64,000 bases of DNA from Blasia pusilla. Lineage: Eukaryota. Positions 9,572-60,011 of this stretch are shown in pieces (the stretch's first letter is position 1; the number at the start of each line of letters is the position of its first letter). The stretch covers positions 30,008,001 to 30,072,000 of the forward strand of contig CM114271.1 of assembly GCA_050084515.1 (NCBI GenBank). The letters run 5' to 3'. A program made the position numbers and the translations under genes. The notes under the pieces are model-generated. The model had not been told where the DNA came from and searched no databases. It saw only the letters and a list, made by a program, of their open reading frames with translations.

Positions 9572-10006
9572 TCACTTCAACTTTCCTCGGAGTTTCACAC
9601 CGAGGGCCCTCTCCATCTTCGCAAGAATCTGCTGATTTGGAATTGCTTTTCCCGCCTCGTATTCCTGGACAACTTTAGGTAGCTCGCTAATCAGCTTCGC
9701 CAGCTCGACTTGCGTCAACTTCTTCTCCAGCCGAGCCTTCTGAATGGCCTGCTTCACTTCATGGGACACTCTGTCGATAGCGATAGACTCGGTTTCTTGG
9801 TCGAGCTTGCGGGGGTTGATTGCAGTCTGCCCAGCTTTCTTGTTAGATCCAGCGTCAGGTTTCTTGGTCACCTGCACTTCCGCTCCCGATCTTATTGCAG
9901 CAGCGACGGCTTTCGGATCGCGGGAGTCGGAAGCCTTGATTCCTCTCTTGTGAATGACAACAGGGTCCCAATCCTGAGTGACTGGACCTGTTCCTCTGGA
10001 TGGCAT
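9572..10006 (-). CDS. MBF1c: Multiprotein bridging factor 1c (144 aa, intronless CDS)
   Basis: MPSRGTGPVTQDWDPVVIHK N-terminus typical of MBF1c. HTH region AIQKARLEKKLTQVELAKLISE...VVQEYEAGKAIPNQQILAKMERALGVKLRGK. Confidence 0.95.
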   Translation of the reverse strand: MPSRGTGPVTQDWDPVVIHKRGIKASDSRDPKAVAAAIRSGAEVQVTKKPDAGSNKKAGQTAINPRKLDQETESIAIDRVSHEVKQAIQKARLEKKLTQVELAKLISELPKVVQEYEAGKAIPNQQILAKMERALGVKLRGKLK

Positions 10007-10974
10007 TTCCTCCTGTCCTTGAACACAGTATTAACTCCGATACATTTCCTACGCACATGTAAAACGTCCAACCAGAGACACAGCATAAATTGACAGTTTT
10101 CTTGAAATTACGAAATTGCTGTTCCACCTCACCAGAGAATCAAAACACAGGACTCAAGATCACGCAGGTTTGTCACTTGAATTCAATTTCCAAAGTAGAA
10201 ACCTAATGAATCCATTGGTTCCAAGGATTCTGAAACCGAGATTAGATGCCTTCGAGCTAATGGTTCGGTTTTGAGGATGCTGATAAATTTTCAACGACGG
10301 AGGAAAGAACAACCGCAGCCTTCATACGAAACGACATCTGGTAGTTTGCGCGTCCATAGTTGAATCGGAGTGATCAAAATAGCGGATTAGAGAACACCGG
10401 ACACCTACCTTATCTTACACGCACAAACAAAAACATGTATGGGATTATCACCTTCTAACAGTTACCCCCGGCAACAGGAAAACTGAAGCAACACCGTCGA
10501 ATGGAAATGCGCTCGCTCTACTTCAGTGCGTCGACGAAGACAGCGTCTTGGTACAACAAACACAGGAATTGACTGTGGGTACTTCCTTGAAGATAGATTA
10601 GATCAAATTGCCGGAGCCTAATGCACCAGGATGGCTAGATTTTGTATAGTTGCGCGCGCCGCAGAAGCCAGCTCACGACACTAGATGAAAGGCGACGTGA
10701 CGTATGGCAGGAAGGTAAATATAGTCGCAGACGCAGAGTCGATCGGTTGCACCAACTGCCGAGGCGCCACTACGAAGTGAAGATATTTCGCGGAGCGACA
10801 GTTTCTGGATAACCGACATCGCGCGTTTGAGCTTACTACAAGGTTCTCGAGGACCAACTGGGAGCAAGAGTGTAACTCACCTGTTCTTGACATGTGTCAG
10901 TGTCAAGAACGGTCTAATCTCTAATACGGTTGCGGTTTGGGCTGGAAGGAGGAATTTACTTGGAGACGTCCTCA

Positions 10975-30978: not shown

Positions 30979-33900
30979 CTACTCTTCCATGATCTGCTTG
31001 CCCTTGCCCATAGGTTCTTTGTACATCTGGACCAGCTCTTTCACGACACGTTTCACAGAGCCATTGTTCTTAAACATTAAGCGCCGATTCATCTCAACGT
31101 CATAAAATCCCATCTCTTCCAGCTCCTCCAGAATTGGATCCCACTCTGCAGCGACACACAAATCGTCCAAAGTGCGTTGGAAGTCTAACTTGTTTTTCTC
31201 CAGCAACTCCAGGATTAGTTTTCGATTGGTGAAACCCATTGCTTCCAGCTTGTCACATACTGCAGGTGCAACCTTATCGCTCATCACCTCTGCCATTTCT
31301 GCGCTGATGGAACTCTCTGATACAGGGGCTTGAATCGGAGCACTAGAAACATTCATTGTAGGTGGCATCTCAACCATGGAGAAACCACCCCCTAATTCAC
31401 TACTCTCCACCGCTGCGACATCATCCTGTGCCTTCACATCTATCTTAGGTTCCAAGACGCTTGGATATTTTGACTCCTCCACAGGCAGTTGTGCTACTAC
31501 CTCACATGCTGGAATTGATTTTTCCACCCTTGAAATCTTCGAAAATGGATTCTCCTCTCTACTTCCATCTTCCTCCGTTACAATAGTCATTGGTGTTTCC
31601 CCTTTAATGCCGTTATTTTCCTGGTTAGCTAATTGCACATCGAATGGAAGAGCGTTCTCAACAACGCTTTCCTCCTCAGCCACATCCTTACTACACTCAG
31701 CACTGGGTGTAGCGACAGATTCGGAGGTAGAGATGAAGTAACGAATAGCAGATAAGGAGTCCACCAAGTTCAGCCCTGAACTTTCTTCTGTACTTTCTGA
31801 TTCATCTACCGTCACATCCAACGTTGCCTGATTCAACCCATTCTCAATATTGTGTACATTTGTTTCATGTACTTTCTCAACCACCTTTATCAACCCCAAA
31901 GGAATCGGATTAGAAAGAGAGAAGTGTCAAACAGTTTAACCACAGCTAATACGCACATTGAAATCAAACATTACACTCACAGTTATTGAAGTCACACTTT
32001 GAAGAGAGTAATAATCTGCAATACCAGTCTGCTTACTCCAGGCAAAGCAATGGGAGGGTACCTGAATTGACACCCACACACGATGTCCGAACTTTGGGCC
32101 GAGAGGGGATGCAAGACGCCAGTGGGAGACATAGCGGCCAGGTCTCTCGGGTGCCACAAACTCTACTGATACTTCCACCTCCTCCTCGGGACTTAATCCT
32201 TGCTGGGGTAACTGAACCCAGGAAACATGGACATCAATACGGCAAGGCCACGATAAAAATGTTTCGTATGAAGTCATCCCGTGGACCGCAACAGACAGAT
32301 CACGAGTAGAGAAAGAAAACCGGGATGTGAACACCGGAAGCTCCCCAAAGAAAAGTTAAGCTAGCCTTTAGCATTCGAATTTTCCTATTAACTGGCCCAC
32401 ACCTTGGTCCAATTTTACTCAATTTGGTGAGTTAGATTATACTCATGAGAAACTTACATCTAATGGCGCGCTGACGCCACAACCCAGATCGTCACCGCTG
32501 ACCTGTACAATCTTCGTGCCAGCAGGCCACGACAACGTGCCGCTATTTCGAAAACGCCAGGTTTTCGTGAATTTGGTTCGAGGAGGCAACTCTGTCCCGT
32601 CCAGAATAGTAACGTCTTGCACGAACCGGGCATCCAACTTTCCTCCGTAACCACCATTCATATGGTACGTATGAGTGCACCGACTATCAGGTCGCGCACC
32701 ATACGGTCCACGCGTAGTGCAAGTCTTCCCCGGGTAGTTGTTTCCACTCAATGCAGGACAGCGCTGAAACATAACTCCGTTAAGTCAGAGCTTCTTAAGT
32801 TAAAACATACAAGACCTGTTCATCTCAAATGTGTAATTTCTCCACAAGCGGACAACCAGTTCTACATCAACATTCACAGGGAGGAAAAACGTACCACCCG
32901 TCCGGTGGCGGGGGAGTGCATGTGCCGAGGACGATACACCGGACGATCCATTCGTGTGTACTCACTGCTATTACCTATGTCCTTGAAACAACCCAGGCAC
33001 AGGTCGTAGTCATGGTTCCTACAATTATGACAAATTGTGAGTAAGTTTTCCAGATTAGCGTAATTCCATGGGACAACACTCGTCTCAATGAAAGGAACCA
33101 GTGCGAGCGACTTACTTTGATGACTTAAAACGAGGACCGATTATAGGGTTCACTCCACAGCCGTCGCACTGCACACCAGTATGAAAAACGCGAGTCACGT
33201 TCACTGCTTCAAGCGGATCGCTATCTACTCTCTCTCTATCAGTGGACGGGGGGCCTTCAGGATTTTCAGAAACTAGATCAGCCGAAGTCTTGATTGGGGC
33301 TGTCTCTGAGGGAGTAGTAGTCGACGCTTCCCGAGTACTAGTGGAGGTGAAGAGTTCGGCCGAGACACGTCCCGTGCCTGAATCCACGCTCTTCACTGAA
33401 GACACAATTTGAGAGGTAACCGTTTTCACGATGGTTTCGAGCAAGTCTGAAAGCTGGCGCGGTGATGCAGAACCCTTCAGAAGAGGTTGCAAGGCGACCA
33501 CACACGGCTTCACAGCATCTGGGGAGAACTCTCTCAGCAAATCGTCGCAACTGGCACCAGGCTCCACATTTGATGTACGCTGCTCAGCACGTATCTCATC
33601 CTTGTGCGTGAGGAGAACGACGTTCAAGCGCAAAGGATTGAGGGCTTGCACGACACACGCATCCTCCAAGTCCTGGTCGTCTCCCATGGTAACAATATCA
33701 TTGTCCTTGTCCGTGTAAGTGATACGAAGCTGTGAATTTTTCGGCAGCTTGAAGATTTCCCGAATCTTGGCTTCCAGCCTCGCGAAAGAAAGAAGACCTC
33801 TATTCTCATCCTGAGGTCGGTCGCCGTAATACGACAGGCGGCGCAGCGTATCTTCGTACTTTATCTGCAAAAAATCGATTGGTTACAAATCATAAATCCT

Positions 33901-35444: not shown

Positions 35445-35894
35445 CGTCACATATTTTAGGATAGATCGACAAGTTTATAATAGAGCGCCTTCAAGGATAT
35501 TGGAGGAAAACCTCATGAGATCAATGACAACATGTTGGGGCATTGGGTAACTTGAGAGGGCATGTTTCTCCTTCGTTTCAATCGATTTGGAATCATGAAG
35601 AGAAACTTACTATTTTTAGTAAATTGTTGTTATGAATATAGTTGACTTTCTATTTTGGGAAGTGATGCTCGACCCTCTATAACGGGTCAAGAGCCAAGGA
35701 GATCCTAAACCCTAAACCTACGAGCATAGGTTACCATGGAGAGAGCTCGAGAGAGTGAAGGGGGTATACCCAAGGAGAGAGCGTTAGAGCTCATTCTCTC
35801 TTTTTTGAATCTTTTGGCATGAAGCGGCGGAGCTATGGTCCTCATGGCCATGTGAGTAATCGAAGCCTCGGATTACCAGACTGGATTTCGTTAC

Positions 35895-35940
<46 letters not shown>

Positions 35941-36060
35941 CTTGTGTGCACTTGTTGAGTGATCTTGATTTAATTGCATATATTTTGGTGCTCGATTATC
36001 TGGATGTTTAGATGCCATGAGTTAGTATGGTATCTTATATGTTTGTGTGTATACTCGCAA
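35445..36060 (+). mobile_element. Diverged solo terminal repeat (B+A) of the DNMT-bearing retroelement family, inverted relative to 49584-50226
   Basis: Colinear with the reverse complement of 49584-50226: GTCAC..TTTTAGGATAGATCG, GTCAAGAGCCAAGGAG, GAGCATAGGTTACCATGGAGAGAGCT, GCGGAGCTATGGTCC, and then the A segment GATGCCATGAGTTAG. Confidence 0.75.
35897..35936. repeat. (GA)20 microsatellite inside the solo repeat
   Basis: Direct reading. The related copies carry only a short GAGAGAGA at this position. Confidence 0.95.
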
Positions 36061-43176: not shown

Positions 43177-46088
43177 TGTTGCGGAAGCGTATGTTTAGTA
43201 GGGCATGCTCTCACTACTGACTGCATCCAAACACAATCCCATTAATCTGGTCTAGATGAATTAGCCTTCCAACTCACTGAATTCTCAACTCGGCACTCCA
43301 TCAAGCTCAACCTTCCTAGTTTCCCACTTTCCAACGCAGGTTAGTCTTTTGAGACTTGGGACACACTTTCTAGATATTCCAAGCATCCAAAATGATGTTC
43401 GCATGGCGGGCGGTCCCAACTATCCAATAGACCTCATATGAGCCCCTAAAAAAGATCCACTTAAATGAGTCGCAAGTTGGAATCCAAAAGTGGCCTCCGA
43501 AATCCACTCTATTGGACTTGGTTTGGGTTGCGAATCCTAACGCCAAACTTTCGATCCATTATGTGCCTTTGGTTCGCCCCACAACGCCCCAAAATGGGGT
43601 TTGAGTCCCAAGCATTCCTAGATACCTTCCCCCTTACTAGTACTTATGGGTTTCTCCGCCCTCCCCCTATCTTTTGGGAAAAAATTCTCGACCCTTCTTT
43701 TCGGGCCTCAACCCAACTCTGTGTATGGTCATTTTGGGCAGTTTCTCAACTTTTGTTTTTGCATTTTCTAAGATCTTTGGTGCTTTAGAAGTGGCTTTGC
43801 ATGAGCTTTCCAACGCCATCCTACTCGTTGGAAAAAAATCTTGGAACTAAAAGTTATGGTAAAAAATATAGACAAAACCCCAAACACTCATCAGGTTCCA
43901 AATCTGGTTCTCACCTCTTTGGAAACCACTCTTCCTAGACTCTACTCCTCTCAAGTCTCAATTCACGTTTGATTAAGGTTTCCTAGTTACGACCATAGAC
44001 GCATGTAATGCTCAACCTTGTTTGCGTCTCATATCGTGTGTCTCCTTCAAGAGACCTCTCTAATGTGCAAACCATCCTAGTGTGAGCCCACTACAGTTCT
44101 GATATTCCGCTTAACGCTCGTTTGGTTATGAGGGTCATGACACTTATCCCTCGTTAGAGATTGATTCCATCATCAACGACAACCTTCTAATGTAAAGTAT
44201 TTTTGGGAAGTTGATCCTTTGACATCAAATTGCATTCTAATAGCAAACCCATAATTCCTCTTTTGGCTCAATTCTTAGTTTGTTGCATCGGCCACTTAGC
44301 ATCTTTTAGTATCTCCTCTTCGATAAGTCTGGATCAGTTATTCGAAACTAATCTAACCTATCAAATAAGCTAACTAAGTCTGCTACCTAAGACTTCTCTT
44401 GCTTATGACTCGTAAACATCCCACATGTTTACAAGGTCCACAAGTCATACTACTTTGGGGTCGCTCTCATATTCGACTTTTGTGTGTCATTAAGTTCACT
44501 CATGCTATCACAAGTAGGATCACCCCAAGCCCCAAGATAGAGTGATATGCGCGCCGATGCTAGGGTGAGCCCAAGTGTTAGTCACCTAACACTTGGTCCT
44601 ATTCTAGGTGCTTATCCAAGATCTCATCTCAAATACTCCTTGTCTCTCCTCTTGACTTACATTCTAAGCATATGAGGAACTAACCATTGCCATGCACTAC
44701 CAAAACCAAATTGCAATCAACCACTAGCATCCGAATCCATGCATTCTTTTATTGCAACACTAGCCTGTTATAGTCACAATAGCCTTTCGCCCGAACTTCC
44801 TATGGTCACAAGTCATGTCCCTAGCTACTTCAAATACTAACACATGTGCTTTTCTTACATGCGCTTGAAGTCTCGTGACAACTCTTGCTTATATTCCAAA
44901 TCTTCGTCTATAATCCAAGTCACCTCTTTCATATGGTAGCCCTTCCATTTGACCAAGTACTCGTACTTCTTGGCCCATGTCTCAAACAAAAAATGGTCTC
45001 CACCTAGAATTCCGGTTCCTTGTTGACGATCACTAGTTGTAGTGTCAATACTTGCCTTCGCTCGGGATGCACATTATCTTGAAGATACTTCTTTAATGGT
45101 GACAGATGGAAAATCAGGTGAATCTTGAACTCTTCTAGCAACTCCAATGTATAAATATCCTCTAATGGGTTTGCCTTGATCACATACAGTTCAACATACT
45201 TGGAAGACACCTTTGTGGAAAACTCTTTCTGAAGAGTGAGATTCTTCACACTCAACCACACTAGCTCCCCTACTTGGAAACTCACTTAGCACTGATTCTT
45301 GTTAGCATGCTTAATGTACCTTAGTTGAGCCTTTGCAAGACTCCTTCTTTTCCCCCTTGTTTGGCTCTCGCATCTCCATTAACAAATCTTATGTAGTTTC
45401 TTGTTGGTTCCATGCCGATGTAGTACCCTTCGAAAGGGCCAAGTCCAGAGGCCCTTCTAGCTCATTTAAGTGGGTTTTGAATCTCGACGCCATACTTCCA
45501 ATCCATTTTGTGCCCTTGGTTCACCCCGCGGCGCCCCAAAGTAAGGTTTGAGTCCCAAGAAATCTTGCAGACCTTCCCCTTTACTAGTACCTCTAGAGTT
45601 CTCTACCCTCCCCCTATCTTTTGGGAAAAGACTCTCGGCCCCTCTTTTTGGGCCTCAATCCATCTCCCCCTATAGTTGTTTTTGGACAATTTATCATCTT
45701 CACCTTGTCATCTGTTAAGATCTTTGGTGCGTTAGAACCAACTTTGCATAAGATTTCCAACGCCACCTTACATATTCTAAGTACATCTTGGGACTCAAAG
45801 AAAAAATCCAAAATATAGTCTAAATTCCAAACTCTAATCACGTTACAAATGGAGTTCTCACCTCTTTGGCAGCCACTCTTCTTAGACTCGACTCCTCTCA
45901 AGTCTTGGTTTATGTTTGGTTTAGGTTTCCTAGTCACGACCATGAACGCATATAACGTTCAATCTTGTTCTTGTCTTATATCTTGTGTCACCTTTAAGAG
46001 ACCTCTCCAATGTGCAACCATCCTAGTGTAAGTCCACTAGAGTTCTAATGTTCCGCTTGGCGCTTGATTGGTTATTAGGGTTGCGACA
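43177..46088 (-). mobile_element. Internally deleted chromoviral Ty3/gypsy element (full 3' LTR, integrase C-terminus/chromodomain, partial 5' LTR)
   Basis: LTR 43177-44142 (TG...CA) with adjacent PPT-like GAGGGATAAG. A second, partial LTR copy at ~45470-46088. GPY/F region FQVGELVWL...IHLIFHLSPLKKY (45004-45285). Chromodomain KKYEYLVKWKGYHMKEVTWIIDEDL (~44895-44971). Confidence 0.8.
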
Positions 46089-49583: not shown

Positions 49584-49709
49584 TGTCGTGCGCATACACA
49601 TCACTATACAACATACATCATTGTCACCCAACACACACACAAACACACACGATCCCAGGCTAACTCATGGCATCCAAATAACGAGACAAGAAGTACCAAA
49701 ACATCTCCA
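49584..49709. repeat. Terminal repeat segment A, outer copy
   Basis: TGTCGTGCGCATACAC...GCTAACTCATGGCATCCAAA...GACAAGAAGTACCAAAACATCTCCA, repeated at 50229-50345. Confidence 0.85.
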
Positions 49710-50226
49710 ATTAAAATAAGATCCAATCTCTCTCATAACACCATAGTTCTCACATGTGTGCACTCTCACATGTCTCTCTCAATGTCAAATCAAACCCACT
49801 CTCTTAATGAGAGGCTTGGGCTACACTCACAATGCAAGGGACCATAGCTCCGCTGCCTCGTGCCAAGAGGTTCAACAAAAAGAGAATGAGCTTTCAAGCT
49901 CTCTCTCCTTGAGATATACCCCTCCCTTCTCCCAAGCTCTCTCCATGGTAACCTATGCTCCCAAGTCACCTCCTTGGCTCTTGACTTGATGTAGGAGGTC
50001 AAAGGCCACTTACCAAAAATATAAGTCGACCATATACTCAAAATAGTACTTACCTAAAATAGTAAGTTTCTCAATATGGCTACAAATGAGCCGAAACGAA
50101 AGGGAAACCTGCTTTCTCACGTTTTCCGAGGCCTCAACAGGTCATCCTCGACCTCTTGAGCATATCCTCCACTACTCGCGAAGGCACTCTACTACATCTC
50201 AACGATATATCCTAAAAGACGTGATA
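49710..50226. repeat. Terminal repeat segment B, 3'-side copy
   Basis: Aligns with 59444-60011. About 11 differences in a 165-bp stretch compared by eye. Confidence 0.9.
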
Positions 50227-50228
50227 AT

Positions 50229-50345
50229 TGTCGTGCGCATACACAACATACATCGCTGTCACCGAACACACCTACAAACACGCACGATCCCATGCTAACT
50301 CATGGCATCCAAAAAACAAGACAAGAAGTACCAAAATATCTCCAA
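50229..50345. repeat. Terminal repeat segment A, inner copy, next to a PPT-like tract
   Basis: Second copy of A. On the minus strand it is preceded by TAGGGGGGCGAT (PPT-like) and begins TGGAGA. Confidence 0.85.
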
Positions 50346-50526
50346 TCGCCCCCCTAGTTGGTGGTTAGGTCCCTCTAACTCCAGATAGCCATGTATCCCT
50401 ACCTCCCATGACATACATCTCTCGGACACTAAGAGCAAGAAGGCTGGGTGCTCATGTGGCCCCGTCGTTAGTCGCCTTCTTGTCATTAATGTCACAGACA
50501 TAAGTCGGAATGTAGAAATAGCTATG

Positions 50527-50670
50527 CTATGTACATCTAGGACACATCCATCTTCCTTGAGGAATCCTAGTGAGAGGTGGCGTCAAACATACCATATGCC
50601 ATCCTCTCGAACATCCATCACAGACTAGCATAATGGCTGCACCACGGGCAGAACCACACAACATACATCG
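50527..50670 (-). pseudogene. PHD finger (C4HC3) at the integrase C-terminus
   Basis: RCMLCGSARGAAIMLVCDGCSRGWHMVCLTPPLTRIPQGRWMCPRCT*, with all 8 zinc ligands present. Confidence 0.9.
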
Positions 50671-50829
50671 CAAGCCTGCAAAAACTATTGCTAAGCTCGG
50701 ATCAAGTGTATCATCAATTTTTGGAATGTGACACGACATACAGTTACGCACATGGTCCTTCCAAACCATACCATCGCTTCCCTCCAATAAGAGAACAACT
50801 GATGGCGAAACCTCATGCACTCTCAAGAT

Positions 50830-51800
50830 GGTGCCCTTCAGTCACATCCAACGACGTGGATGCCGTCTGCTGCAAGTAGACATAGTCTCCCTGATGAAAC
50901 CTCCGGATAGTAGGTCGATAACCACCTCCCCATATAGTTGTATACCTCAATATATCCCGATGTTGCGCAATCGCCAAGTTCTCAAATGCCATGGGCATCA
51001 CTCTTCGAAACAATTAAGCCCTCTGAGAATATGCTTGCATCCATACATTAGGGTCATTAAGGTTCAACACCTCACCAACATCTTGACGAATGGCTGCAAG
51101 TAAATCACGCTCTCGGCAATACAAAAGCAATTATGGTGAGAAAGACGCTAAGGATGCCTGCTTGTTGAATCTGTGTCCCATCGCCAACCACGACAACTGG
51201 AGGTCCCAATCTCCTATGTGACCTCTCTACAAGCCATACTTGCGTAGTCTTCTCTTCACGGTCTGCACAACCCGCTCCGCTAGTCCATCCGCCTCAGGAT
51301 GATCTCGCGAAGTAGTGCAGTGGTCGATCAGTGCCTGATCTTACAAGGCCTGAAACTCCCCGCGGAACTCTGTACCCTGGTCTATCAACACTTCAGCTGG
51401 TGCATCGCAATGACTTAGCACTTGATCTAGGAAGGAAAATGCTACTCCCTCACTCGCTTTGTCAAGCAATGCAACCAACTCTATCCACTTTGAGAAGTGC
51501 TCGACCATCACCAACACATAATGACTATGGCGCTCTGTAAGAGGCAAAGGTCATGCAAAATCCAAACTCCATATATAACCTAAACCCATGATTGGAAATG
51601 GATGCAACTGTGGAGTTGGAGCATTGAACGATGCTATGACTCGATCACACACCATGCATCTGGAAACAAACTGGTGAACGTATGTTTGCATGCCTCGCCA
51701 CCACAACTGAATGTGGAGCAAGCTGTACGTCCGCTTCACTCCAAAATGACCCAACTCCTCCTGGGCATGACGCACCAAACGTGCTCTCTACGAAGGATGA
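50830..51800 (-). pseudogene. DDE integrase (H2C2 zinc region + rve core), disrupted
   Basis: GHFGVKRT...WWRGM...RCMVC; WSLDFA*PLP; VMVEHFSKWIELV; VLIDQGTEF; TTSRDHPEADGLAERVVQTVK; FHQGDYVYL. Confidence 0.9.
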
Positions 51801-52230
51801 GGCACTACACGCACTCTACCATCCTCCCACACTCGCACCACATGTGTCCCCTCCCATCAGAATCGTCTTGCTCGCTGTAGGATTCGATCCAGCTCCCTAG
51901 CACCCACTGTGCTCACGACACTGCCAGTGCGCATGTACTCCAAGACCACTCCATCGTCGTGAATATCTCGGCTACCTATCGTATCTTCATCAACCTTTGG
52001 ATCTAAGGACTCTACATCAAACCTTCCCATCGAAGTCTCAAAGATTTGGCTCTCCATAGCCAACAAGCCCAAATAGGCTGACGCATGCCATCCTGGCACC
52101 AACTCCCCATCAATCTCACCATGCCAACGAGCTCAAGTCGTATCTCGTTGACTCGGACATGGGTTACGGCTCAAACTATCTGCATCCTGGTTGACCGTCC
52201 CAGGTCTATGCACACTTGGAAGTCATACTC

Positions 52231-53500
52231 CTATAACAAAAGAGCCCACCTCGCAAGCTTCCCTGTAAGCTTGTGAGACTCCATCAACCACTTAAGTGGC
52301 TGATGATCAGTATTGATGGTAAAAGGATTGCCAAATAGATAACATCTAAAATGTGTGACAGCCCACATTGCAACCAAGCACTCACCCTCATAAGAGTTAT
52401 ATTTTGCCCCTGCAGCGTTGTTCGAGCAACTAGCATAAGCCACCACAAACTCTCTACCATCATCGTCATATTGGGTGAGCACGGCTCCAAGCCCCAACAT
52501 ACTCCAATCAGTATGGAATTGGAAAGGACGCCCCTTGATCGGTCTCCTCAATATGGGCACGGACGTCAATCTATCCTTGAGCATATGAAATGATATCTCC
52601 TGTTCATCCTCCCAGTGCCACTCCTGATCCACCTTGCTCAGCAAAGTCAGCGGCTTTGCAATGAAGCTGAAATCCTTGACGTACCGTCGATAGAAGTTTG
52701 CCAATCCCATGAATGCACAAACTCGACTCACATCTGTAGGGCGTGGAATGTGTGAAATAGCCTCTACCTTCATCTGCTGCACACCAAGGCCACCTAGGTA
52801 TATTGTATGACCCAAATACTCAATCTGGTCATAGAAGAACTTGCACTTGTCTGGATGTAGCTTCAGTCTATGTAACTGCAATCGTCAAAACACCTCAGCT
52901 AGGTGTCGTTCATGCTCCTCAACTATGGCGCTAAAGACTGCGATGTCATCAATATAACACCTAGCAAAATCCAGACCTACCAAGATCCTATTTATGACCC
53001 TTTCAAACTCGGCCGGGGCGTTCTTCAACCCAAATGGTAAGAACCGCCAGTGGTATAAGGAATCCTTCATGTGAGGATTGATGCCCAAAAATGCCGTCTT
53101 CTGCATGTCCTCCAATCTGATAGCTAGCTGATGGTATCCGGCTCAAAGATCTAACGAACTGAAGACCTTTGCATGCCCAATTGCATCAAAGATCTCCTCA
53201 AGAGTAGGCATGACATACCTATCGGACTTCGTCTATCGATTGATAGGTCGATAATCTCCACACATCCACCTATCTGTCTCGTCGCCATGCACATCCTTCT
53301 TGGCAGGCATGATAGTGGCAGATGCATACTCTTCATGCGACATCTCCACTAGTCCTGCTCCAACCAAGTCTTGGCTCCTACTCTGAATCAAAGCCCTCTC
53401 CATGTCACTTTATCTGTAGGGTCGTCAGAAGATTGACGTGTCCCTTGACAACTCAATGCGGATCCTTGGATCCTTCAGTGTACCCAAATCATGCATACTA
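52231..53500 (-). pseudogene. Reverse transcriptase and RNase H, disrupted
   Basis: MCGDYRPIN; FSSLDL*AGYHQ; FLPFGLKNAPAEF; YIDDIAVFS; FHTDWSMLGLGAVL; YNSYEGECL; TDHQPLKWL; KLARWALLL. Confidence 0.95.
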
Positions 53501-53934
53501 AATGCAAAACAACACCTATAACTCCTAAGGAACTGGTGTATCCGGCGCCGCTCTCCTCTTGTCAACTTAGGGCTCATATCTTGCTGCCAAAAGTCCATCG
53601 TGACAACGGTAGGACTCTCCGGCGCGGGTGTCGGTGGTTGCTATAGTGCAATCCCATCTCGGACAAAAAAATTCGACTGCTCCCCTACAGTCAACTGCAA
53701 AATCGGATCTCCATATGCAGTACCCGGAACCACGCTCGATGTTGTGGCTACCATCTCCTAGCGTACCGGCAAAACATCCCAAGGAGTTCAAGGGCGTCTC
53801 TCCCAATCACCCTTGGTGTGTCAATCTCCTCGAGTCTCGCCCCCAGCCATTGCCTCAACCATCTCGGTAGGCATGGGGCTCACCAACGCAACTGCTGTGA
53901 TCTATTGCATCCCAAAAGGACAATGCTCAGCTAT

Positions 53935-54890
53935 TCCTAAGCTGAAAATCCATGTTAAGTAGTTCAGGTCCATCGCCTGACCCAAGACATCACATTGTGA
54001 TGCCTCTGAAAATGAAGGTTCTACCGTCACTCATGTGGGGAATCCCATCGCTCACTCTCGCTCATCGACGTTGGGCTCTACCAACCTCTGTACGTGGTCA
54101 TCCCAAACCAAGCCAGGTCCGGCCTCCTTGAATGTATAGGAAGCGGGAAAACTCACCAATGTGGGAAAGGTTGCCCATGGTATGCCAATCCTGTTGAGCA
54201 TAGTCAACGGCGGTCGATCATCTAGCCTCATTGCGTATGATCGATGGCCCGGATCCAATATAGAATCCACCAACAAATCGGAGGGGTGCTCCACTCTCGC
54301 ATATGCCCTCCGCAACACCTCGTGTGGTACCAAGTTGGTCCACCAAAGACACAGGCGATGTGCTCATGAACCCACACTTGACGCATCCAACAAAACTGCC
54401 GGGTCGATTCATGCGCGCACCTGATGTGCACTTGTCACCACACGGGACCTCGAATCGCCCAAAATTGGTACATTTTCCAGAATGTATCCTTCATGACGAG
54501 ATTGATGCTCCTGCAAGTGTCGCAAGATCCGCATCATCTCCCAAAACAACGTGGACCGAGAGTCAGCTAATACGCTACCCCGTTCAGCACTCGACTGGCC
54601 CTGATATGGCCAACCAGCAATGACCAAGTTTATGGTCCCTACCCGCTCTGAGTCCTGCGCCCCCAACAATGAAATGTCCCTCAGTAGGGAACTCTGGTAA
54701 CCCTGAATGGCGGACCCAGACAACAAGTCAGGAAAACAGAGGCACAACTTCGCTATATGGTGAAGTGAAGTGCGCCTCGCAACATCATCAATCTCCACAT
54801 ACAGGTACTGTTGCACACGCACTCCACTTTGCAAAACAGCAACTAATCCAGCACTGATCCCTCCAAAGAGATCCAACACCCGAATACCCT
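53935..54890 (-). pseudogene. C5 cytosine DNA methyltransferase domain (DNMT3-like motif order) within retroelement pol, disrupted
   Basis: Motif I RVLDLFGGI (~54857-54882). Motif II YVEID. Motif IV LVIAGWPYQG, where the catalytic PC is PY (codon 54604-54606). Motif VI YILENV (~54469-54486). Motif VIII S*AHRLCLWWTNL. Motifs IX/X ERE*AMGFP...VLGQAMDL. Same frame as the RT ORFs. Confidence 0.85.
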
Positions 54891-55299
54891 TCTCTAGGAT
54901 CCACCACAAAATCGGGGTGGTATCCAAATGGGTCATAGCAAATCTCTTGGCTACCTTGGGTCCCTCTGACCCGTCACACTCTGGTGCAAACGTCTCGCTC
55001 CACGCGGTCTACACATGCTCAGTGGCTAAGCGTCGAAGCTCCTCAATCAAGCCCCAAAGAGGCACCTCTCCTCCACTGATTGATGTGGCTACCATGACAC
55101 TCCTCTCCATAGAAATGTGAGGAACGAGAGTATCCTCTGCATGGACATATCCCTCAATCAAATCACTAGGCCAAGTGATGGCAATGCTAAATGCTCCTAA
55201 GGTCGCCATCTCTCCTGGCCGTCGCTCGATCACTGTACTTGTGAATCAAATGGGTAATGAGCTAAGGCGTCCATCACCTGACTGCCATCATGGTCTCGA

Positions 55300-55610
55300 G
55301 GACCCTGACTCCTCCCAATAATCCAAGGAAAACCCCATCGGATATAACACTGCTCCACCAACCAAGACGTCATAGGACACTGCATCAGTCACTATCGCCT
55401 TGGCTCGCACCACGGACTCATCTGTAGGATGTCTTGGGAAAATCCTCACCATGACCTCATGTCGGGTGATATACTATATGGTACTCGCTCTACCCAAGGA
55501 TGTCTGTATCCGGAATGGAAAACGCTCCACATCGGCTCTCGTCAAGCCCAATCCTCTGAATGACGCTTTCCCCAACATAGGGGTTGCGCTCCTGAATCCA
55601 ACAAGACGCA
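55300..55610 (-). pseudogene. Retroviral-type aspartic protease, frameshifted
   Basis: Active site VLLDSGAQPL (~55580-55608). Downstream DAVSYDVLVGGAVLYPMGF. Confidence 0.75.
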
Positions 55611-56239
55611 TTGCGGACTAAAAGGTGTTCCTCATGGACTCACCAACTGGAAGACCTCTCCCCAATTATCCAGCAATACAACACTAAGAGAAGCCATGGC
55701 ACGCTCTATCATGGGTCTAGCGGGCATCTCCGCCATCCTAGCAACCGCAGCCTGCCATGAATCTGACGTGGACGGCCTGAGCATCCGCTCCAAGGGCACT
55801 TCCATCATCTCCTCTACAATCACCTCCGAATGTTATGCATGAACTACAATTCCACGCTCACATAGCATAGCAACCAGCCGGAAAACCTCGACGGACGTAC
55901 CCCCCAACGTCATAACATCAGAAGAAGTAAATAGCGGAGCACAGTACACCATCGTGGTCACCCCCAACATCATACTTGACACATGCTCCTCATGAGCATC
56001 AACAATAGGAGTCACAATACTCGCTTCTCCCATCGCCCTCCATGCTTGCATACCAATAACATCACCAACTCTATGGGAACTCTGATCACGATCCATCGAT
56101 GGGGTCCTCATTGCCTCAGACAATGTGAAAGATTGAGGAAGCCTGGTCTGTTTCTTGGCTTCCCCTCCTTGTGGATCCAACTCTACGACTGCTCCATGCA
56201 TCACAATTGCAGCGACCTCCATCTGGGCAACCACGCACA

Positions 56240-57697
56240 TTCAACCAGGATCCTCCATATCTCTAGCAGCTCCATATGATATCAATGCCACGGATTCGTC
56301 ATCGGGTAACCTCAATGCCATAGCGGCAATGTGCTCATGTAGCTGCTGTATCTGAGCAGCCATCCCAGCCTCACGCTTGACATCTCCCTCAACGCATCTA
56401 GGTGGTGGGACTCTATCTCCTCCACGGGCAGCTCCACCACCCTGTCGGGAAACTCTAGCTCCTCGTCCCCCAACGAGACCACATAGTGCATGATCTCTGG
56501 GCCCACTCGGACCGACTACTCGCTCTGGTGCCCTCTTTGTCCCTCGGTCCGCACGTAACTCAGGGTGTAAAGTGAAACACCTGGCACGTGTTTGACCATA
56601 CCTCTGAAAATAGTCACACTCAAAATCTTCCGGTGCAACACCCTCTACTCCTCCATGCTGAGGCACACGTCCATGACCTAGACGAGTGCAATCACGCTCA
56701 TGATGGGCTCCACCACATGACCAACAAGTAATTGTAGGCAGCTGCTACTGAGCCGCATATGCATGCGCAGGTCTCTGTGGCATGGCTTCGCGGTATCCTC
56801 CCTTAGCTCGTGGTGCCACAGTCGACCTATCTCGGAGTCCACTTTGCTGCATTGGTGGTGCAAACAATCGTGACTTCTCTCGCCCAGAACCCATGGTGGC
56901 TACGCTCTCCTCCGCCATGTTGCGCTCAATGTTCTTGGCGGTCCTAAAAACATCTCTCAATGTAGGCGAGGTGTTCATAAGAAGCACCCCTCCTGCACCC
57001 TTGTCCGCAGGGTCCGATCCAGCATGGCGTACCATGACTCGATAGCCTGAGCCTCTGTCACCCCCTGAGTGACGTTGATCAACTGACGCAAGCGAGTGTA
57101 AGCCTCACCCAAACTCTCACCCGGGTGCCTCTGGAAGTTGTGGATGCTCTGCAACTTCTCCGTCCGTACCGCGTGGTAGCTCGTCCTCAACTCAGCGAAG
57201 AACTCAACCACGGGGTTGAACCTGGGATGAACTTGACTAGACGGTGAAACTGCTCCAGTGCAAGTGACCCCTCCTAAAATATCACTAGTGGAAGAGGAAG
57301 TAGCCTCTTCTGACTCCTCCTCCTCATATGGGAACGGCTCCGTCAATGACACATAGTGTGGGTCATAGTAGAGTCGCCATGCCTCAATCTCCTGGGCATA
57401 TCTGTGGGAGAACTCATGGTAATCGTCAATAGGCGCCCCCTCTAAATGCTAGAACAAACCGTTCCATGCTGTAAATGGGTTGAACGCTATAGAGTTCCTA
57501 GCCTACTGTGAGTCACACCAACTCCTAAACTCCACAATGAACTCGTGTAGCTCTAAAGTGCCTACAACACCCGAAAACCTACGCGGTCCTCTACCTTGGT
57601 CGTCCATCTCGTGCGCCAAACTGGCAGGACTACTTAATATGTATGGTGGATCACCAACACACTCCTCTACACCCTTCCCCTTGTCTGAAGACGACAA
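56240..57697 (-). pseudogene. Retrotransposon gag with degenerate zinc knuckle
   Basis: MSSSDKGKG...PRRFSG; FQRHPGESLGEAYTRLRQL; CDYFQRYGQTRARC (decayed CX2CX4HX4C). Confidence 0.8.
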
Positions 57698-59443
57698 AGA
57701 AGGAGATCGAGGTGATCTCTCACGTGGAGACCCTCGAAACCTCGCACCATTCTAGGTTAACCCTCCAGAGCTTCTCTCAGGTCTACTACCTCGCCTCTCA
57801 AAATCCCAAAGGATGCCGTGATGGCCCTGGTACCCCTCTTACACGATCACTCTCAATCTAGCAAGTAATCCCTCAATCACTAAAACTAAACATGCGACAC
57901 TCAATCTACACTCTCTCACTGAGACGTGTGTTGTGCAGCAACAAGCGGTGCGGTCTGATAAATCAACAGATCTATCATCTCATCGACGAACCATCCTCAA
58001 CTCTAGACATCCCACACAAGTCTATGTCCCCTAAACCCATATATCATTGCTGCTCTCACCATCAGCACAAAACCCAATATCCCAAATAACTTCCCAATAC
58101 CCAGATATCCCTCAGATGTGTAGGGTAAGAGACCAGAATGGGTAACCTGAAAACAATGTCGATGTCGCTCCTCGACAACTGCAAATCTCGACCCCAACTC
58201 GGTCGTGAAGACAAATCCTCCAATCAGCAAGTCGTACTCCTCCCGTACTGATGCTGATGAAACCTCCTCGATGTGCGATGCACGTCCAGTGGTCCAATGC
58301 GGCACTGGCAGCACGGAACGGCTACAAACGGCATGGCACTCGGGAATGGGATGCGGCACTCGGTGGCATATCCTCCTCAATCAGCAATTCACACACTCTG
58401 CTCCTTAGTGAAGGAGCGACTCCGCGATGAAGATGGTGTGGTGTGGCCACGAGTGGCCAGCGCGACAATTAGCGGCGCGTTGCGGTTACGGGCAACACGG
58501 CACGGTACTCGATCGTCGTCGAGTGGCTACCAATCACAACATAATAGCACGAAATGAAAATTCAAACTCCATAGCCCGAGGTCACCTGCCATCACTGGTT
58601 GTTGACGAAACTGCGATGACAATAGCGACCAAAACAAAGTACATGGTGGCGACGCAAGTCAGAAAATCAATGGTCATCATGGAAGACCCTCCACTCTGTA
58701 ATGGCGGCAATGGCAACCAAGGGTGGACAATGGCCAAAAGCAGCTCAGAGTAGTGCTAGGCGGCGGCAGCGGCGGCGGCGGACGACAATAGACGGTGGAT
58801 GGTGAACCAATGATGTTGACGGTTGACTGTTGATGGCGTACTATTGACGATGACTATGGCGGCAGTGGCTGCCGCCGGCGCCGTGGCTGGTTTAGGGTTT
58901 GAACAATTTAACCCAAAAAATCGCCTAACAATGGAAAATTTTTCAAGATTGACCATAAGTTTTTGTTTGCAACTCCAAATTGTGGATTTTTTTTTTGCAC
59001 AGCATGCACAACTTCACGATCTACGACAACATCAAAAAATAATTTGAATTGGATCTTCCAATAAAAACGTACGTGGACTGTTGTAATGCACAACGTCTCT
59101 TTCTCCTACACAAAATGTGGCAGCGCTTCCGGGCTGATTTCTCCCAACGAAACTGTAAAACTTGTGAGAACACAAATCAAGAAGCTACATGGTACTCCCA
59201 AGAGCACCGACATGGAGCAATCTTCCCCCATACTCAATTCCTGTCGAGAATTGGGCAGCGCTTCCGTGTGCCTTTCTCCCGTACAAAATATCAGCAAAGC
59301 AAAACAGCAAACTCGCACGACTCTTGCTCCGATGAGCACTCCCATGAGCCATGAAGTACGGAACATGGTCCCCCAACCTGCACCAAACATCGAACAACCA
59401 GCTAGCTCCCCCATCAAGCTCTCTCACTCACTCATTCTCTTTT

Positions 59444-60011
59444 TGTAATATAAGATCTAATTTCTTGCACAACACCATAGTTCTCACATGTGTGCACTCA
59501 CACATGTCTCTCTCAATGTCAAACCAAACCCACTCTTCTAATGAGAGGCTTGGGTTACACTCACAAGCCAAGGGACCATAGCTCCGCCGCCTCGTTCCAA
59601 GAGGTTCAACAAAGAGAGAATGAGCTCTCAAGCTCTCTCTCTCCTTAAGTATACCCCTCCCCTCTCCCAAGCTCTCTTCATGATAACCTATGCTCCCAAG
59701 TCACCTCCTTGGCTCTTGACCTGATGTAGGAGGTCAAGGGCCACTTACCAAAAATATAAAGTTGACTATATACTCAAAATAGTACTTACCTGAAATAGTA
59801 CTTTTCTCAATATGGCTCCAAATGAGCGGAAATGAAGGGGAAACCTACTCTCTCAGGTTTTCCGCGGCCTCACCAGGTCATCTTTGACCTCATGAGCGTG
59901 TCCTCCACTAATCATGCCTCAGAAGGTCATCTTCGACCTCCTAAGCCTGTCCTCCACTAATTGCAAAGGCGCTCTACTAGATCTCAACGATCTATCCTAA
60001 AAGACGTGACA
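59444..60011. repeat. Terminal repeat segment B, 5'-side copy
   Basis: TGTAATATAAGATC...CCTAAAAGACGTGACA. Contains a ~49-bp tandem duplication (~59870-59965) that is absent from the other B copy. Confidence 0.9.

What the first reader, a model, noticed from the sequence alone, without database searches (positions are those of the whole stretch)
50527..50826. PHD finger fused after the integrase: a histone reader paired with a DNA-methylation writer in one element
Seen: an intact C4HC3 PHD (C..C...MLVCDGC...WHMVCLTPPL..IPQGRWMCPRC) ends the pol region, where chromoviruses carry a chromodomain. Known: PHDs of this sequence style (BAZ/UHRF1/CHD4-like) generally bind the unmodified H3 N-terminus. 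Cellular DNMT3 likewise uses a PHD-like ADD domain that reads H3K4me0. Inference: the element may target H3K4-unmethylated chromatin and methylate it, forming a self-contained reader-writer module.
Basis: partly seen in the sequence, partly recalled or inferred. Interest (0 to 1): 0.75.

Follow-up and report, generated by a model that had tools for sequence, protein, structure and literature searches.

The report
PHD finger ending a retrotransposon integrase
A dead jumping gene in a plant-like genome ends its integrase with a real, evolutionarily conserved PHD zinc finger and also carries a DNMT3-like DNA methyltransferase, a pairing that turns out to be common in green-lineage retrotransposons but whose histone-reading role is still unproven.

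Summary
On the minus strand, 50533-50667 encodes a complete C4HC3 PHD finger (Pfam PF00628, E 2.3e-11), and a stop follows at 50527-50529.

It closes the pol of a decayed Ty3/gypsy element (~49605-60009): gag-PR-DNMT3-like-RT-RNaseH-IN-PHD. The element has split direct repeats like those published for KnitGypsy-Dnmt3.

In this copy one frameshift (~50825-50832) separates the integrase from the PHD. In relatives the two are collinear in one frame:
- bryophyte proteins, 60-76% identical;
- 73 of 80 metagenome loci;
- 18 of 18 long polyproteins.

The DNMT and PHD travel together: 28 of 31 loci with enough upstream DNA, and 101 of 116 algal polyproteins that carry the same DNMT between RNase H and IN.

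The nearest solved structures are PHDs that read the unmodified H3 tail (KDM5 PHD1, BAZ2, BHC80, UHRF1). However, the window's clade has lost the acidic face of those fingers: 1 acidic and 4 basic residues, against 6 and 1 in the algal relatives. H3K4me0 reading is therefore not secure here. The DNMT also lies about 1,100 residues upstream of the PHD.

Most likely the PHD is an integrase chromatin tether, analogous to a chromodomain, co-inherited with the DNMT but not shown to be coupled to it. It is a new member of a known kind.

The parts
50533..50667 (-). PHD finger proper (aa 59-103 of the terminal ORF), C4HC3, all eight zinc ligands intact
   Evidence: Pfam PF00628 E 2.3e-11, 44 bits against a cut-off of 24. 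Ligands listed. Fold supported.
50527..50841 (-). Terminal ORF of pol: integrase C-terminal (SH3-like) tail plus PHD; stop codon at 50527-50529
   Evidence: Aligns over its whole length to bryophyte IN-PHD proteins at 60-76% identity.
50825..50832 (-). Frameshift separating the integrase C-terminal region (frame of 51013-50816) from the tail+PHD ORF
   Evidence: tblastn of intact relative P0194 gives two collinear pieces in adjacent frames, meeting here.
50816..51293 (-). Integrase C-terminal region, broken into pieces; contains the GDYVYL motif of the SH3-like domain
   Evidence: translation. alignment to P0194 residues 1-119. No Pfam hit for the pieces on their own.
51344..51787 (-). Integrase zinc-binding (H2C2) domain and catalytic core
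   Evidence: PF17921 E 7.2e-13. PF00665 E 5.3e-07 (30.3 bits, below the 32.6 cut-off because the piece is a fragment).
52231..53640 (-). Reverse transcriptase and RNase H
   Evidence: RT_RNaseH E 4.9e-30 and RVT_1 E 1.4e-11. The N-terminal RT pieces are assigned by translation only.
53905..55008 (-). DNMT3-like C5 cytosine methyltransferase between protease and RT, in three pieces. Motifs I and VI are present; motif IV reads WPYQG, so the catalytic Cys is lost in this copy.
   Evidence: PF00145 E 1.1e-05, 25.5 bits against a cut-off of 22. Alignment A2, where 7 of 7 relatives read WPCQG. For intact relative P0173 the best solved relatives are the DNMT3A/3B catalytic domains, E 6e-12.
55291..55640 (-). 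Aspartic protease remnant
   Evidence: Translation matches the protease end of relatives P0175 and P0177, which run on into the DNMT. No Pfam hit.
55836..57448 (-). gag remnant with a CCHC knuckle
   Evidence: Translation. gag piece found upstream of the DNMT in related loci at 36-57% identity. No Pfam hit.
59446..60009 (-). 5' long direct repeat ('B')
   Evidence: About 90% identical to 49712-50224.
49605..50346 (-). 3' repeat block A-B-A: short repeat 50240-50346, long repeat 49712-50224, short repeat 49605-49711. The whole element therefore reads B-coding-A-B-A (split direct repeats).
   Evidence: Related locus L002 has the same layout.

Best explanation
The feature is the C-terminal PHD finger of the integrase of a decayed Ty3/gypsy LTR-type retrotransposon. 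The element is on the minus strand at about 49605-60009 and reads gag-PR-DNMT3-like-RT-RNaseH-IN-PHD. It belongs to the streptophyte 'Gypsy-DNMT3' kind and sits in a plant-like, probably bryophyte-like, genome.

Shown:
- The PHD is a standing, selected part of the integrase in this lineage.
- It is collinear with the IN SH3-like tail.
- It closes the polyprotein.

Inferred:
- It works like the chromodomain of chromoviruses. As part of the intasome it tethers integrase to chromatin and so biases where new copies land.
- The ligand is most likely a nucleosomal surface, with the H3 N-terminal tail as first candidate. H3K4me0 specificity is not secure for this clade, because the acidic binding face of the related readers has been replaced by a basic one.
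- The DNMT3-like enzyme of the same pol is a separate module. As proposed in print for retrotransposon DNMTs, it could methylate the element's own new DNA.
- The two modules are co-inherited, but in this family they probably end up on different mature proteins.

This particular copy is dead and does nothing now.
For: Reality and position of the PHD:
- Pfam match, fold model and ligand set.
- One frameshift only between the IN region and the PHD ORF.

Family trait:
- 19 named or unnamed proteins at 60-76% identity from Marchantia polymorpha, Calypogeia fissa, Sphagnum fallax and metagenomes carry the IN tail and PHD contiguously. Two of them also hold the rve core.
- 73 of 80 related metagenome loci give one single-frame alignment from the GDYVYL motif to the end of the PHD.
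- 18 of 18 long polyproteins among the best 150 library hits have Integrase_H2C2 followed by the PHD.

Selection:
- dN/dS of the window against 74-76 loci is 0.22 overall and 0.17 for the PHD codons. Among the decayed loci themselves it is 0.8-0.97.
- Seven of the eight zinc ligands (the second Cys is conserved in at least 90% of rows), the Asp after the third Cys and the Trp before the seventh Cys are invariant across 28 proteins of both architectures.

Reader class:
- The nearest solved sequences and structures are PHDs solved with unmodified H3 tails: KDM5A/B PHD1, BAZ2A/B, PHF21A, ATXR5, UHRF1, AIRE, CHD4 and DPF3.

Terminal position:
- In 63 of the 78 loci whose reading frame closes within the contig (80 examined), the stop lies 3 codons past the end of the 104-residue query, that is 4 residues after the last Cys. 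This is the position of the chromodomain in chromoviruses (passages seen).

Co-inheritance with the DNMT:
- 28 of 31 loci with more than 4450 nt upstream.
- 101 of 116 long polyproteins found by the DNMT alone list PF00628.
Against: - No binding data of any kind.
- The window's clade has a median of 1 acidic and 4 basic residues in the N-terminal half of the PHD, against 6 and 1 in the algal relatives. In one search the acidic residues of KDM5B PHD1 align to neutral or basic ones here. The canonical way of holding the basic H3 tail may therefore be lost.
- The structure model is only moderate (mean pLDDT 60.8).
- Only 5 of 68 loci keep an uninterrupted ORF from the IN core to the PHD, and only 7 of the 73 single-frame alignments are free of stops. 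Most of what was examined is dead DNA.
- dS against the window is saturated (1.1-1.6), so the dN/dS values are rough.
- Protease cleavage sites are unknown, so whether the DNMT and IN-PHD separate is an inference.
- Insertion-site preference could not be measured.
Confidence: 0.55

Rival explanations
1. Reader-writer module. The PHD reads H3K4-unmethylated chromatin and directs or licenses the element's own DNMT3-like enzyme to methylate it, as the ADD domain does for cellular DNMT3.
For: - The DNMT and PHD are kept together in 28 of 31 loci and in 101 of 116 algal polyproteins.
- The DNMT of the two architectures is the same lineage: 34-38% identity over about 335-350 residues, E about 1e-60. 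The pairing therefore survived a move of the DNMT within pol.
- In the algal architecture the DNMT lies directly upstream of IN-PHD and could stay fused to it.
- The nearest solved PHDs read unmodified H3.
Against: - In the window's family RT, RNase H and IN lie between the DNMT and the PHD.
- The acidic face expected of an H3K4me0 reader is missing in this clade.
- Co-inheritance inside one polyprotein gene is expected whatever the functional link.
- No test of contact between the two domains could be run.
Confidence: 0.2
2. The PHD binds something other than a histone tail: a host protein N-terminus, DNA or the nucleosome acidic patch, or a partner inside the virus-like particle or pre-integration complex. 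It serves import, assembly or host-factor tethering.
For: - The basic N-terminal half in this clade.
- Solved UHRF1 PHD complexes with the non-histone peptides PAF15 and Stella are among the structural neighbours.
Against: - The overall closest relatives are histone readers.
- The Asp after the third Cys and the P-x-G-x-W loop are invariant. From recall, these hold H3R2 and the H3 N-terminus in those readers.
Confidence: 0.18
3. The PHD is an H3K4me3 reader that sends integration to active promoters.
For: PHD fingers as a family include such readers. UHRF1-H3K4me3 and Ehd3-H3K4me1 entries appear low in the list.
Against: - None of the best sequence matches is a known cage-type reader.
- The single Trp before the zinc-binding His aligns with the core Tyr or Phe of the unmodified-H3 readers shown, not with a cage position (partly from recall).
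Confidence: 0.05
4. The PHD is not part of the element: a chance ORF, or a host exon next to a retrotransposon.
For: None, beyond the frameshift in this copy.
Against: - E 2.3e-11.
- Collinearity with IN in 73 of 80 loci and in 18 of 18 polyproteins.
- It lies inside the repeats that bound the element.
Confidence: 0.02

Closest known systems
KnitGypsy-Dnmt3 of Klebsormidium nitens ('Gypsy-DNMT3' of streptophytes), de Mendoza et al. 2018, PMC5890265 (section 9 and passages read)
   Same: - A Ty3/gypsy pol with an unrearranged DNMT3-type methyltransferase inside it.
- A repeat layout of the DIRS kind (A-coding-B-A-B), which the window and locus L002 show as B-coding-A-B-A.
- A streptophyte-like host.
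   Different: - The paper's main text never mentions a PHD (0 occurrences). Its figure 4c and PDF supplement could not be seen.
- The position of the DNMT in the K. nitens element is not stated in the text.
- No K. nitens sequence was retrieved here, so direct kinship is untested.
- The window's relatives are bryophyte sequences.
Chromoviruses (Ty3/gypsy elements with a C-terminal integrase chromodomain)
   Same: A small histone-reader-type domain fused to the very end of the integrase after the SH3-like tail. The published role of the chromodomain is to direct integration (passages).
   Different: - The domain here is a PHD zinc finger, not a chromodomain. No chromodomain was found in the window's pol or in 18 long relatives.
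- The ligand is unknown.
PHD-bearing retrotransposons of green algae (REM1, Gypsy-7a_cRei) and CR1 non-LTR elements. Passages in PMC6673714, PMC8557442 and PMC9940879. The REM1 paper itself is not held.
   Same: A PHD finger as an accessory domain of a retrotransposon polyprotein. It is said there to be a common accessory domain in Chlamydomonas transposons.
   Different: - In Gypsy-7a_cRei the figure legend lists the PHD before INT, with no DNMT. Here the PHD follows IN and a DNMT is present.
- Kinship with these elements was not tested.
EpiLTRs (chromodomain + adenine methyltransferase + DNMT in one LTR element), bioRxiv 10.64898/2026.05.21.726589 (passages)
   Same: The idea of a retrotransposon that assembles a chromatin reader and a DNA methylation writer in one unit.
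   Different: - Their reader is a chromodomain.
- Their DNMT is said to be sister to DNMT4 and appended at the 3' end of pol.
- Those elements carry a DAM domain as well.
- That preprint treats the streptophyte Gypsy-DNMT3 as a separate acquisition.
Cellular DNMT3 with its ADD (PHD-like) domain
   Same: A DNMT3-type catalytic domain in the same gene product as a PHD-type zinc finger.
   Different: - In DNMT3 the ADD domain is adjacent to the catalytic domain and regulates it (established knowledge, recalled). Here the two are about 1,100 residues apart, with RT, RNase H and IN between them.
- The finger is a plain PHD rather than an ADD.

Membership tests
PHD finger (Pfam PF00628) | C4HC3 zinc-ligand pattern with canonical spacing | tested here: met
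   C-x2-C-x11-C-x2-C-x4-H-x2-C-x14-C-x2-C in the window. Seven of the eight ligands are invariant across 28 relatives; the second Cys is conserved in at least 90% of rows.
PHD finger (Pfam PF00628) | Profile score above the curated threshold over the whole model | tested here: met
   44 bits against 24, profile positions 1-47 of 47, E 2.3e-11.
PHD finger (Pfam PF00628) | PHD fold | tested here: met
   AlphaFold2 model with pLDDT 65-86 in the PHD part. Foldseek finds 34 PDB matches at E <= 0.001; those aligned over 45-51 columns are PHD fingers at 0.6-2 A rmsd.
PHD fingers that read the unmodified H3 N-terminus (KDM5 PHD1, BHC80/PHF21A, AIRE, BAZ2, UHRF1 type) | Closest sequence and structure relatives belong to this class | tested here: met
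   Best single-domain PDB hits are KDM5B, KDM5A and Lid PHD1 (E about 5e-14 to 9e-14), then DPF3, KAT6A, PHF21A, ATXR5, BAZ2A/B, AIRE and UHRF1. Several entry titles state 'unmodified H3'.
PHD fingers that read the unmodified H3 N-terminus (KDM5 PHD1, BHC80/PHF21A, AIRE, BAZ2, UHRF1 type) | Acidic residues before or after the first Cys pair that hold H3K4 and H3R2 (the role of these residues is recalled, not from a call) | tested here: not met
   The window has 1 acidic and 3 basic residues. The clade median is 1 and 4, against 6 and 1 in 12 algal relatives. The acidic run of KDM5B PHD1 aligns to neutral or basic residues. Only the Asp after the third Cys is kept.
PHD fingers that read the unmodified H3 N-terminus (KDM5 PHD1, BHC80/PHF21A, AIRE, BAZ2, UHRF1 type) | Binding of H3(1-10) peptide, abolished by K4 methylation | not testable with these tools
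Gypsy-DNMT3 retrotransposons (KnitGypsy-Dnmt3 kind) | Ty3/gypsy pol composition (PR, RT, RNase H, DDE integrase) | tested here: met
   RVT_1, RT_RNaseH, Integrase_H2C2 and rve. The protease is assigned by alignment to relatives.
Gypsy-DNMT3 retrotransposons (KnitGypsy-Dnmt3 kind) | Unrearranged DNMT3-type methyltransferase inside the pol ORF | tested here: met
   PF00145 in the window. Relatives run PR->DNMT (P0175, P0177) and DNMT->RT->RNase H (P0187) in one ORF. The best solved relatives are DNMT3A/3B. The window's own copy has lost the catalytic Cys.
Gypsy-DNMT3 retrotransposons (KnitGypsy-Dnmt3 kind) | DIRS-like split direct repeats (A-coding-B-A-B) | tested here: met
   Window: 59446-60009 / coding / 50240-50346, 49712-50224, 49605-49711. 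L002 has the same layout. L013 and L020 showed no such repeats at the settings used.
Gypsy-DNMT3 retrotransposons (KnitGypsy-Dnmt3 kind) | Sequence kinship with the K. nitens elements | not tested
   No K. nitens protein appeared, and no K. nitens DNA is reachable with these tools.
Chromovirus | Chromodomain at the integrase C-terminus | tested here: not met
   No chromodomain family was reported for the window's pieces or for 18 long relatives. A PHD occupies that place.

The most novel reading that the evidence does not exclude
A single old lineage of Ty3/gypsy elements, spread from chlorophyte algae to bryophytes, has kept a DNMT3-like writer and an integrase-fused PHD together as a co-adapted epigenetic toolkit.

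The DNMT has moved within pol: it lies between RNase H and IN in algae, and between protease and RT in the land-plant branch. In the same branch the PHD's predicted binding face flipped from acidic to basic.

If the PHD chooses the chromatin and the DNMT marks the newly integrated copy, these elements would be self-contained reader-writer-integrase machines. This holds above all in the algal form, where DNMT-IN-PHD may be one protein. The charge flip would then mark a change of chromatin target on the way to land plants.
Probability: 0.2. Interest if true: 0.7.

Novelty: new member of a known kind. Interest (0 to 1): 0.4.

Why it matters
Retrotransposons that carry their own DNA methyltransferase are a recent and still small chapter of epigenetics, and what guides their integration is unknown.

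This work shows three things:
- The DNMT3-carrying gypsy elements regularly end their integrase in a PHD finger.
- The pairing extends from green algae to bryophytes.
- The land-plant branch changed the charge of the PHD face.

These give concrete, cheap experiments: peptide arrays on two PHD types, and insertion maps in Marchantia. The experiments could tell whether these elements pick their chromatin and mark it themselves.

For this window the practical message is modest. The copy is an old, dead member of a known kind.

Tried and rejected
- Own genome: none is held for this window, so family copies had to come from metagenome contigs and protein collections.
- Earlier scan notes: nothing near this place or like this sequence. 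One note on another genome was found by words.
An H3 peptide could not have been offered in any case.
- Looking for Klebsormidium proteins by the DNMT or by the IN-PHD: none was listed. Whether the published K. nitens element carries the PHD therefore stays open.
- REM1 paper (PMC1291216): not held.
- Supplements of PMC5890265: one file of 5,162 characters is held as text, with no occurrence of PHD, PF00628 or KnitGypsy. The PDF supplement and the figures were not seen.
- Literature searches for a PHD together with a DNMT in a retrotransposon found no paper that describes the pairing. Searches. Passages read.
- Uninterrupted ORF from IN core to PHD in the loci: only 5 of 68. The copies are decayed, so collinearity was judged by single-frame alignment instead.
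- Repeat search in L013 and L020 found no terminal repeats at the settings used.
- ESM Atlas look-up of P0196 gave one IN-PHD cluster (score 0.94, 80 members, commonest phylum Mollusca). This is a lead only and was not followed.
- Considered and rejected: chance ORF or host exon; chromovirus membership; H3K4me3 cage reader.

Full report
**What is at the coordinates**

On the minus strand, 50527-50841 is a 104-residue stop-to-stop ORF.
- Its last 45 residues are a full C4HC3 PHD finger. Pfam PF00628 covers the whole profile at E 2.3e-11, 44 bits against a cut-off of 24.
- All eight zinc ligands are present.
- The stop follows one residue after the last Cys.
- An AlphaFold2 model built on 19 aligned sequences is moderate overall (mean pLDDT 60.8) but reaches 65-86 over the PHD.
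- Foldseek places the model on solved PHD fingers at 0.6-2 A over 45-51 residues.

**The element around it**

The PHD closes the pol of one decayed Ty3/gypsy-type element on the minus strand. From 5' to 3' the parts are:
- gag with a CCHC knuckle (57448-55836);
- a protease remnant (about 55640-55291);
- a C5 DNA methyltransferase (55008-53905; PF00145, E 1.1e-05);
- RT and RNase H (53640-52231; RVT_1 E 1.4e-11, RT_RNaseH E 4.9e-30);
- integrase (52132-50816; Integrase_H2C2 E 7.2e-13, rve E 5.3e-07);
- the IN tail plus PHD ORF.

These assignments rest. The frames are broken many times.

The element is bounded by repeats about 90% alike. In element orientation they are laid out as long repeat - coding - short repeat - long repeat - short repeat: 59446-60009; 50240-50346; 49712-50224; 49605-49711. 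A related locus, L002, has the same layout; L013 and L020 showed none at the settings used. This is the 'A-coding-B-A-B' DIRS-like arrangement that de Mendoza et al. 2018 describe for KnitGypsy-Dnmt3 of Klebsormidium nitens (PMC5890265, section 9 read).

No whole genome is held for the window. The closest relatives of both the DNMT and the IN-PHD are bryophyte proteins. The surrounding DNA is about 35% G+C. From this I infer a non-seed land-plant host. This is an inference, not a test.

**Is the PHD in frame with integrase in the family?**

- *This copy.* An intact Marchantia protein (P0194) aligns to the window as two collinear pieces in adjacent frames, meeting at about 50825-50832. This copy therefore has one frameshift there.
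- *Close relatives.* Nineteen proteins at 60-76% identity run from the IN C-terminal region through the GDYVYL motif and the SH3-like tail into the PHD. They end a few residues after it. They come from Marchantia polymorpha, Calypogeia fissa, Sphagnum fallax and metagenomes. Two of them also contain the rve core.
- *Metagenome loci.* A scan found 211 pattern matches. Of these, 143 were confirmed and the best 80 were kept. Of the 80, 73 give one single-frame alignment from GDYVYL to the end of the PHD. Three do not, two are cut by a contig end upstream, and two end before the end of the PHD.
- *State of those copies.* Most are dead. Only 7 of the 73 alignments are free of stops. Only 5 of 68 loci have an uninterrupted ORF from the IN core to the PHD. 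Of 76 ungapped rows, 40 have no stop in the 104 codons and 55 keep all eight ligands.
- *Library search.* The 1.84-billion-protein search returned 7,653 hits at E <= 0.001 and 856 at E <= 1e-10. Most of the best 150 match the whole IN tail plus PHD stretch.
- *Long hits.* Of 18 long hits scanned, 18 have Integrase_H2C2 followed by the PHD, and 17 also have rve.

**Selection**

Against 74-76 loci, the window's 104 codons give a median dN/dS of 0.22. The value is 0.25 for the IN tail and 0.17 for the PHD. dS is saturated at 1.1-1.6, so these values are rough. Pairs of the decayed loci give 0.8-0.97, as expected for neutral decay after insertion.

Across 28 proteins of both architectures, these residues are invariant: seven of the eight zinc ligands (the second Cys is conserved in at least 90% of rows), the Asp after the third Cys, a Pro, and the Trp before the seventh Cys.

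**The methyltransferase and its pairing with the PHD**

- *Type.* The DNMT is of DNMT3 type. For the intact relative P0173, the best solved relatives are the catalytic domains of DNMT3A (E 6e-12) and DNMT3B, then plant DRM2.
- *State in this copy.* Seven of seven aligned relatives read WPCQG at motif IV. The window reads WPYQG, so the catalytic Cys is lost.
- *Position in the family.* Relatives run protease->DNMT in one ORF (P0175, P0177). They also run DNMT->RT->RNase H (P0187 of Marchantia).
- *Pairing in the loci.* Of 31 loci with more than 4450 nt upstream of the PHD, 28 have the DNMT upstream in the expected order. The three without it (L025, L049, L078) lack it at the searched threshold and look truncated or nested.
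- *A second architecture.* RT-RNase H-DNMT-IN-PHD occurs in long polyproteins that include a Scenedesmus 'pol'. Five of 18 have PF00145 at E <= 1e-4. Of eight rescanned proteins, six carry a long RNase H-to-IN gap, and four of those six have weaker matches at the same place.
- *Same DNMT lineage.* The bryophyte-type DNMT is 34-38% identical over about 335-350 residues to the DNMT of that second architecture, at E about 1e-60. This is far closer than to DNMT3A.
- *Pairing in algae.* A search with that DNMT alone, among proteins of 1185-3772 residues, gave 116 hits. Of these, 101 list PF00628. The named ones are from Haematococcus lacustris, Scenedesmus, Chlamydomonas eustigma, Chromochloris and Cymbomonas. 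Of the 15 without a PHD, nine also lack rve and so look truncated.

The pairing of this DNMT with an IN-fused PHD is therefore old and widespread in the green lineage. It survived a move of the DNMT within pol.

**What kind of PHD is it?**

By sequence, the best single-domain matches among solved structures are PHD1 of KDM5B, KDM5A and Lid (E about 5e-14 to 9e-14). After these come DPF3, KAT6A, PHF21A/BHC80, ATXR5, BAZ2A/B, CHD4, AIRE and UHRF1. The fold search gives the same set, and several entry titles name complexes with the unmodified H3 tail.

The N-terminal half of the finger tells a different story. I counted residues from four before the first Cys to the His.
- The window has 1 acidic and 3 basic residues.
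- Its clade has a median of 1 and 4 (15 sequences).
- Twelve algal-type relatives have a median of 6 and 1, with runs of Asp and Glu before the conserved LLCD.

From recall, not from a call: those acidic residues hold H3K4 and H3R2 in readers of the unmodified tail. The claim 'reads H3K4me0' is thus reasonable for the algal relatives. For the window's clade it is weak, although that clade's finger is clearly under selection.

**Mechanism**

*Shown:* the PHD is a conserved, terminal part of the integrase, and a DNMT3-like enzyme is co-inherited with it.

*Inferred:*
- The PHD tethers the intasome to chromatin, as the chromodomain does in chromoviruses (passages). The H3 tail is the first candidate ligand, but K4me0 specificity is uncertain in this clade.
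- The DNMT acts as a separate module, perhaps on the element's own new DNA. This was suggested for retrotransposon DNMTs in the abstract of PMC5890265 (listing).
- In the window's family RT, RNase H and IN lie between the DNMT and the PHD. A single reader-writer polypeptide is therefore unlikely there. In the algal form, DNMT-IN-PHD could be one protein.

I could not test contact between the domains, because the complex predictor was not available.

**What is known in print**

- DNMT3 inside gypsy elements of a streptophyte is published (PMC5890265). It is cited as 'Gypsy-DNMT3' in streptophytes in a 2026 preprint and mentioned in PMC12344493.
- PHD fingers in retrotransposons are published. 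PMC6673714 states that many retrotransposons encode one. PMC8557442 calls it a common accessory domain in Chlamydomonas. PMC9940879 lists a PHD in Gypsy-7a_cRei.
- A reader plus writers in one LTR element is described as 'EpiLTR', with a chromodomain and different methyltransferases.
- I found no text that describes a PHD together with the DNMT3 in these elements. The main text of PMC5890265 has 0 occurrences of 'PHD'. Its one supplement held as text has none. Its figures and PDF supplement were not seen and may show it.

**Verdict**

The element is a dead new member of the known Gypsy-DNMT3 kind, and the PHD is a genuine part of its integrase. It is weakened by the domain order in this family and by the loss of the acidic face. 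Interest is moderate.

Noticed in passing
window 49605-50346 and 59446-60009; L002 1676-1975, 10238-10805: The element has split direct repeats (long - coding - short - long - short) instead of two plain LTRs, yet it encodes a DDE integrase rather than a tyrosine recombinase. The layout is the same in one related locus. It matches the DIRS-like layout reported for KnitGypsy-Dnmt3.
   Followed up: partly
window 54580-54600 region (DNMT motif IV), minus strand: The window's DNMT reads WPYQG where 7 of 7 aligned relatives read WPCQG, so the catalytic cysteine is lost in this copy.
   Followed up: yes
loci L001-L080, the 104 codons of IN tail and PHD: Of 1,542 differences from the commonest codon, 1,088 (71%) are G>A or C>T. 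Many stops are Gln, Arg or Trp codons turned into stops. This is the pattern expected from deamination of methylated cytosines in silenced copies.
   Followed up: partly
proteins P0099, P0117, P0097, P0075 and the list: A second architecture, RT-RNase H-DNMT-IN-PHD, is common in chlorophyte polyproteins. Its DNMT belongs to the same lineage as the bryophyte-type DNMT that sits between protease and RT.
   Followed up: partly
P0099 residues 1184-1223; also P0221, P0225, P0311: Some algal polyproteins carry a G-patch domain (PF01585) between the DNMT and the integrase.
   Followed up: no
P0053, P0117, P0129, P0141, P0024: Several algal polyproteins continue for 300-500 residues after the PHD with no Pfam match. 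In the bryophyte type, pol ends a few residues after the PHD.
   Followed up: no
P0202 (Marchantia gene model, 410 aa): This annotated protein joins a truncated PHD to a piece that resembles DNMT motif IV. It is probably a chimeric model across adjacent or nested copies.
   Followed up: no
window 35447-36050: A stretch 72-74% identical to the long repeat of the element, on the opposite strand. It is possibly a solo repeat of a related family.
   Followed up: no
window 45004-45285 (-) and 28955-29378 (+): Fragments of other retroelements. One is an integrase C-terminal-like ORF (read from the translation). The other is a weak RT/RNase H match at 29-38% identity.
   Followed up: no
window 9572-10030 (-) and 30979-33882 (-): Long host-like ORFs. 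From their translations they look like a multiprotein-bridging-factor-type protein and an NBR1-like protein. These names are recalled from reading the sequences and were not tested.
   Followed up: no
L042, L044, L034, L038, L039, L059, L064, L078: Other gypsy pol fragments lie within a few kb of the element in several loci. In L044 the fragment includes a second, 35%-identical IN-PHD. This suggests nesting among retroelements. No base rate was available.
   Followed up: no
ESM Atlas cluster nearest to P0196: A cluster of 80 proteins with PHD (99%), rve (94%) and Integrase_H2C2 (66%), whose commonest recorded phylum is Mollusca. This hints that IN-PHD fusions also occur in animals. It is a lead only.
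   Followed up: no
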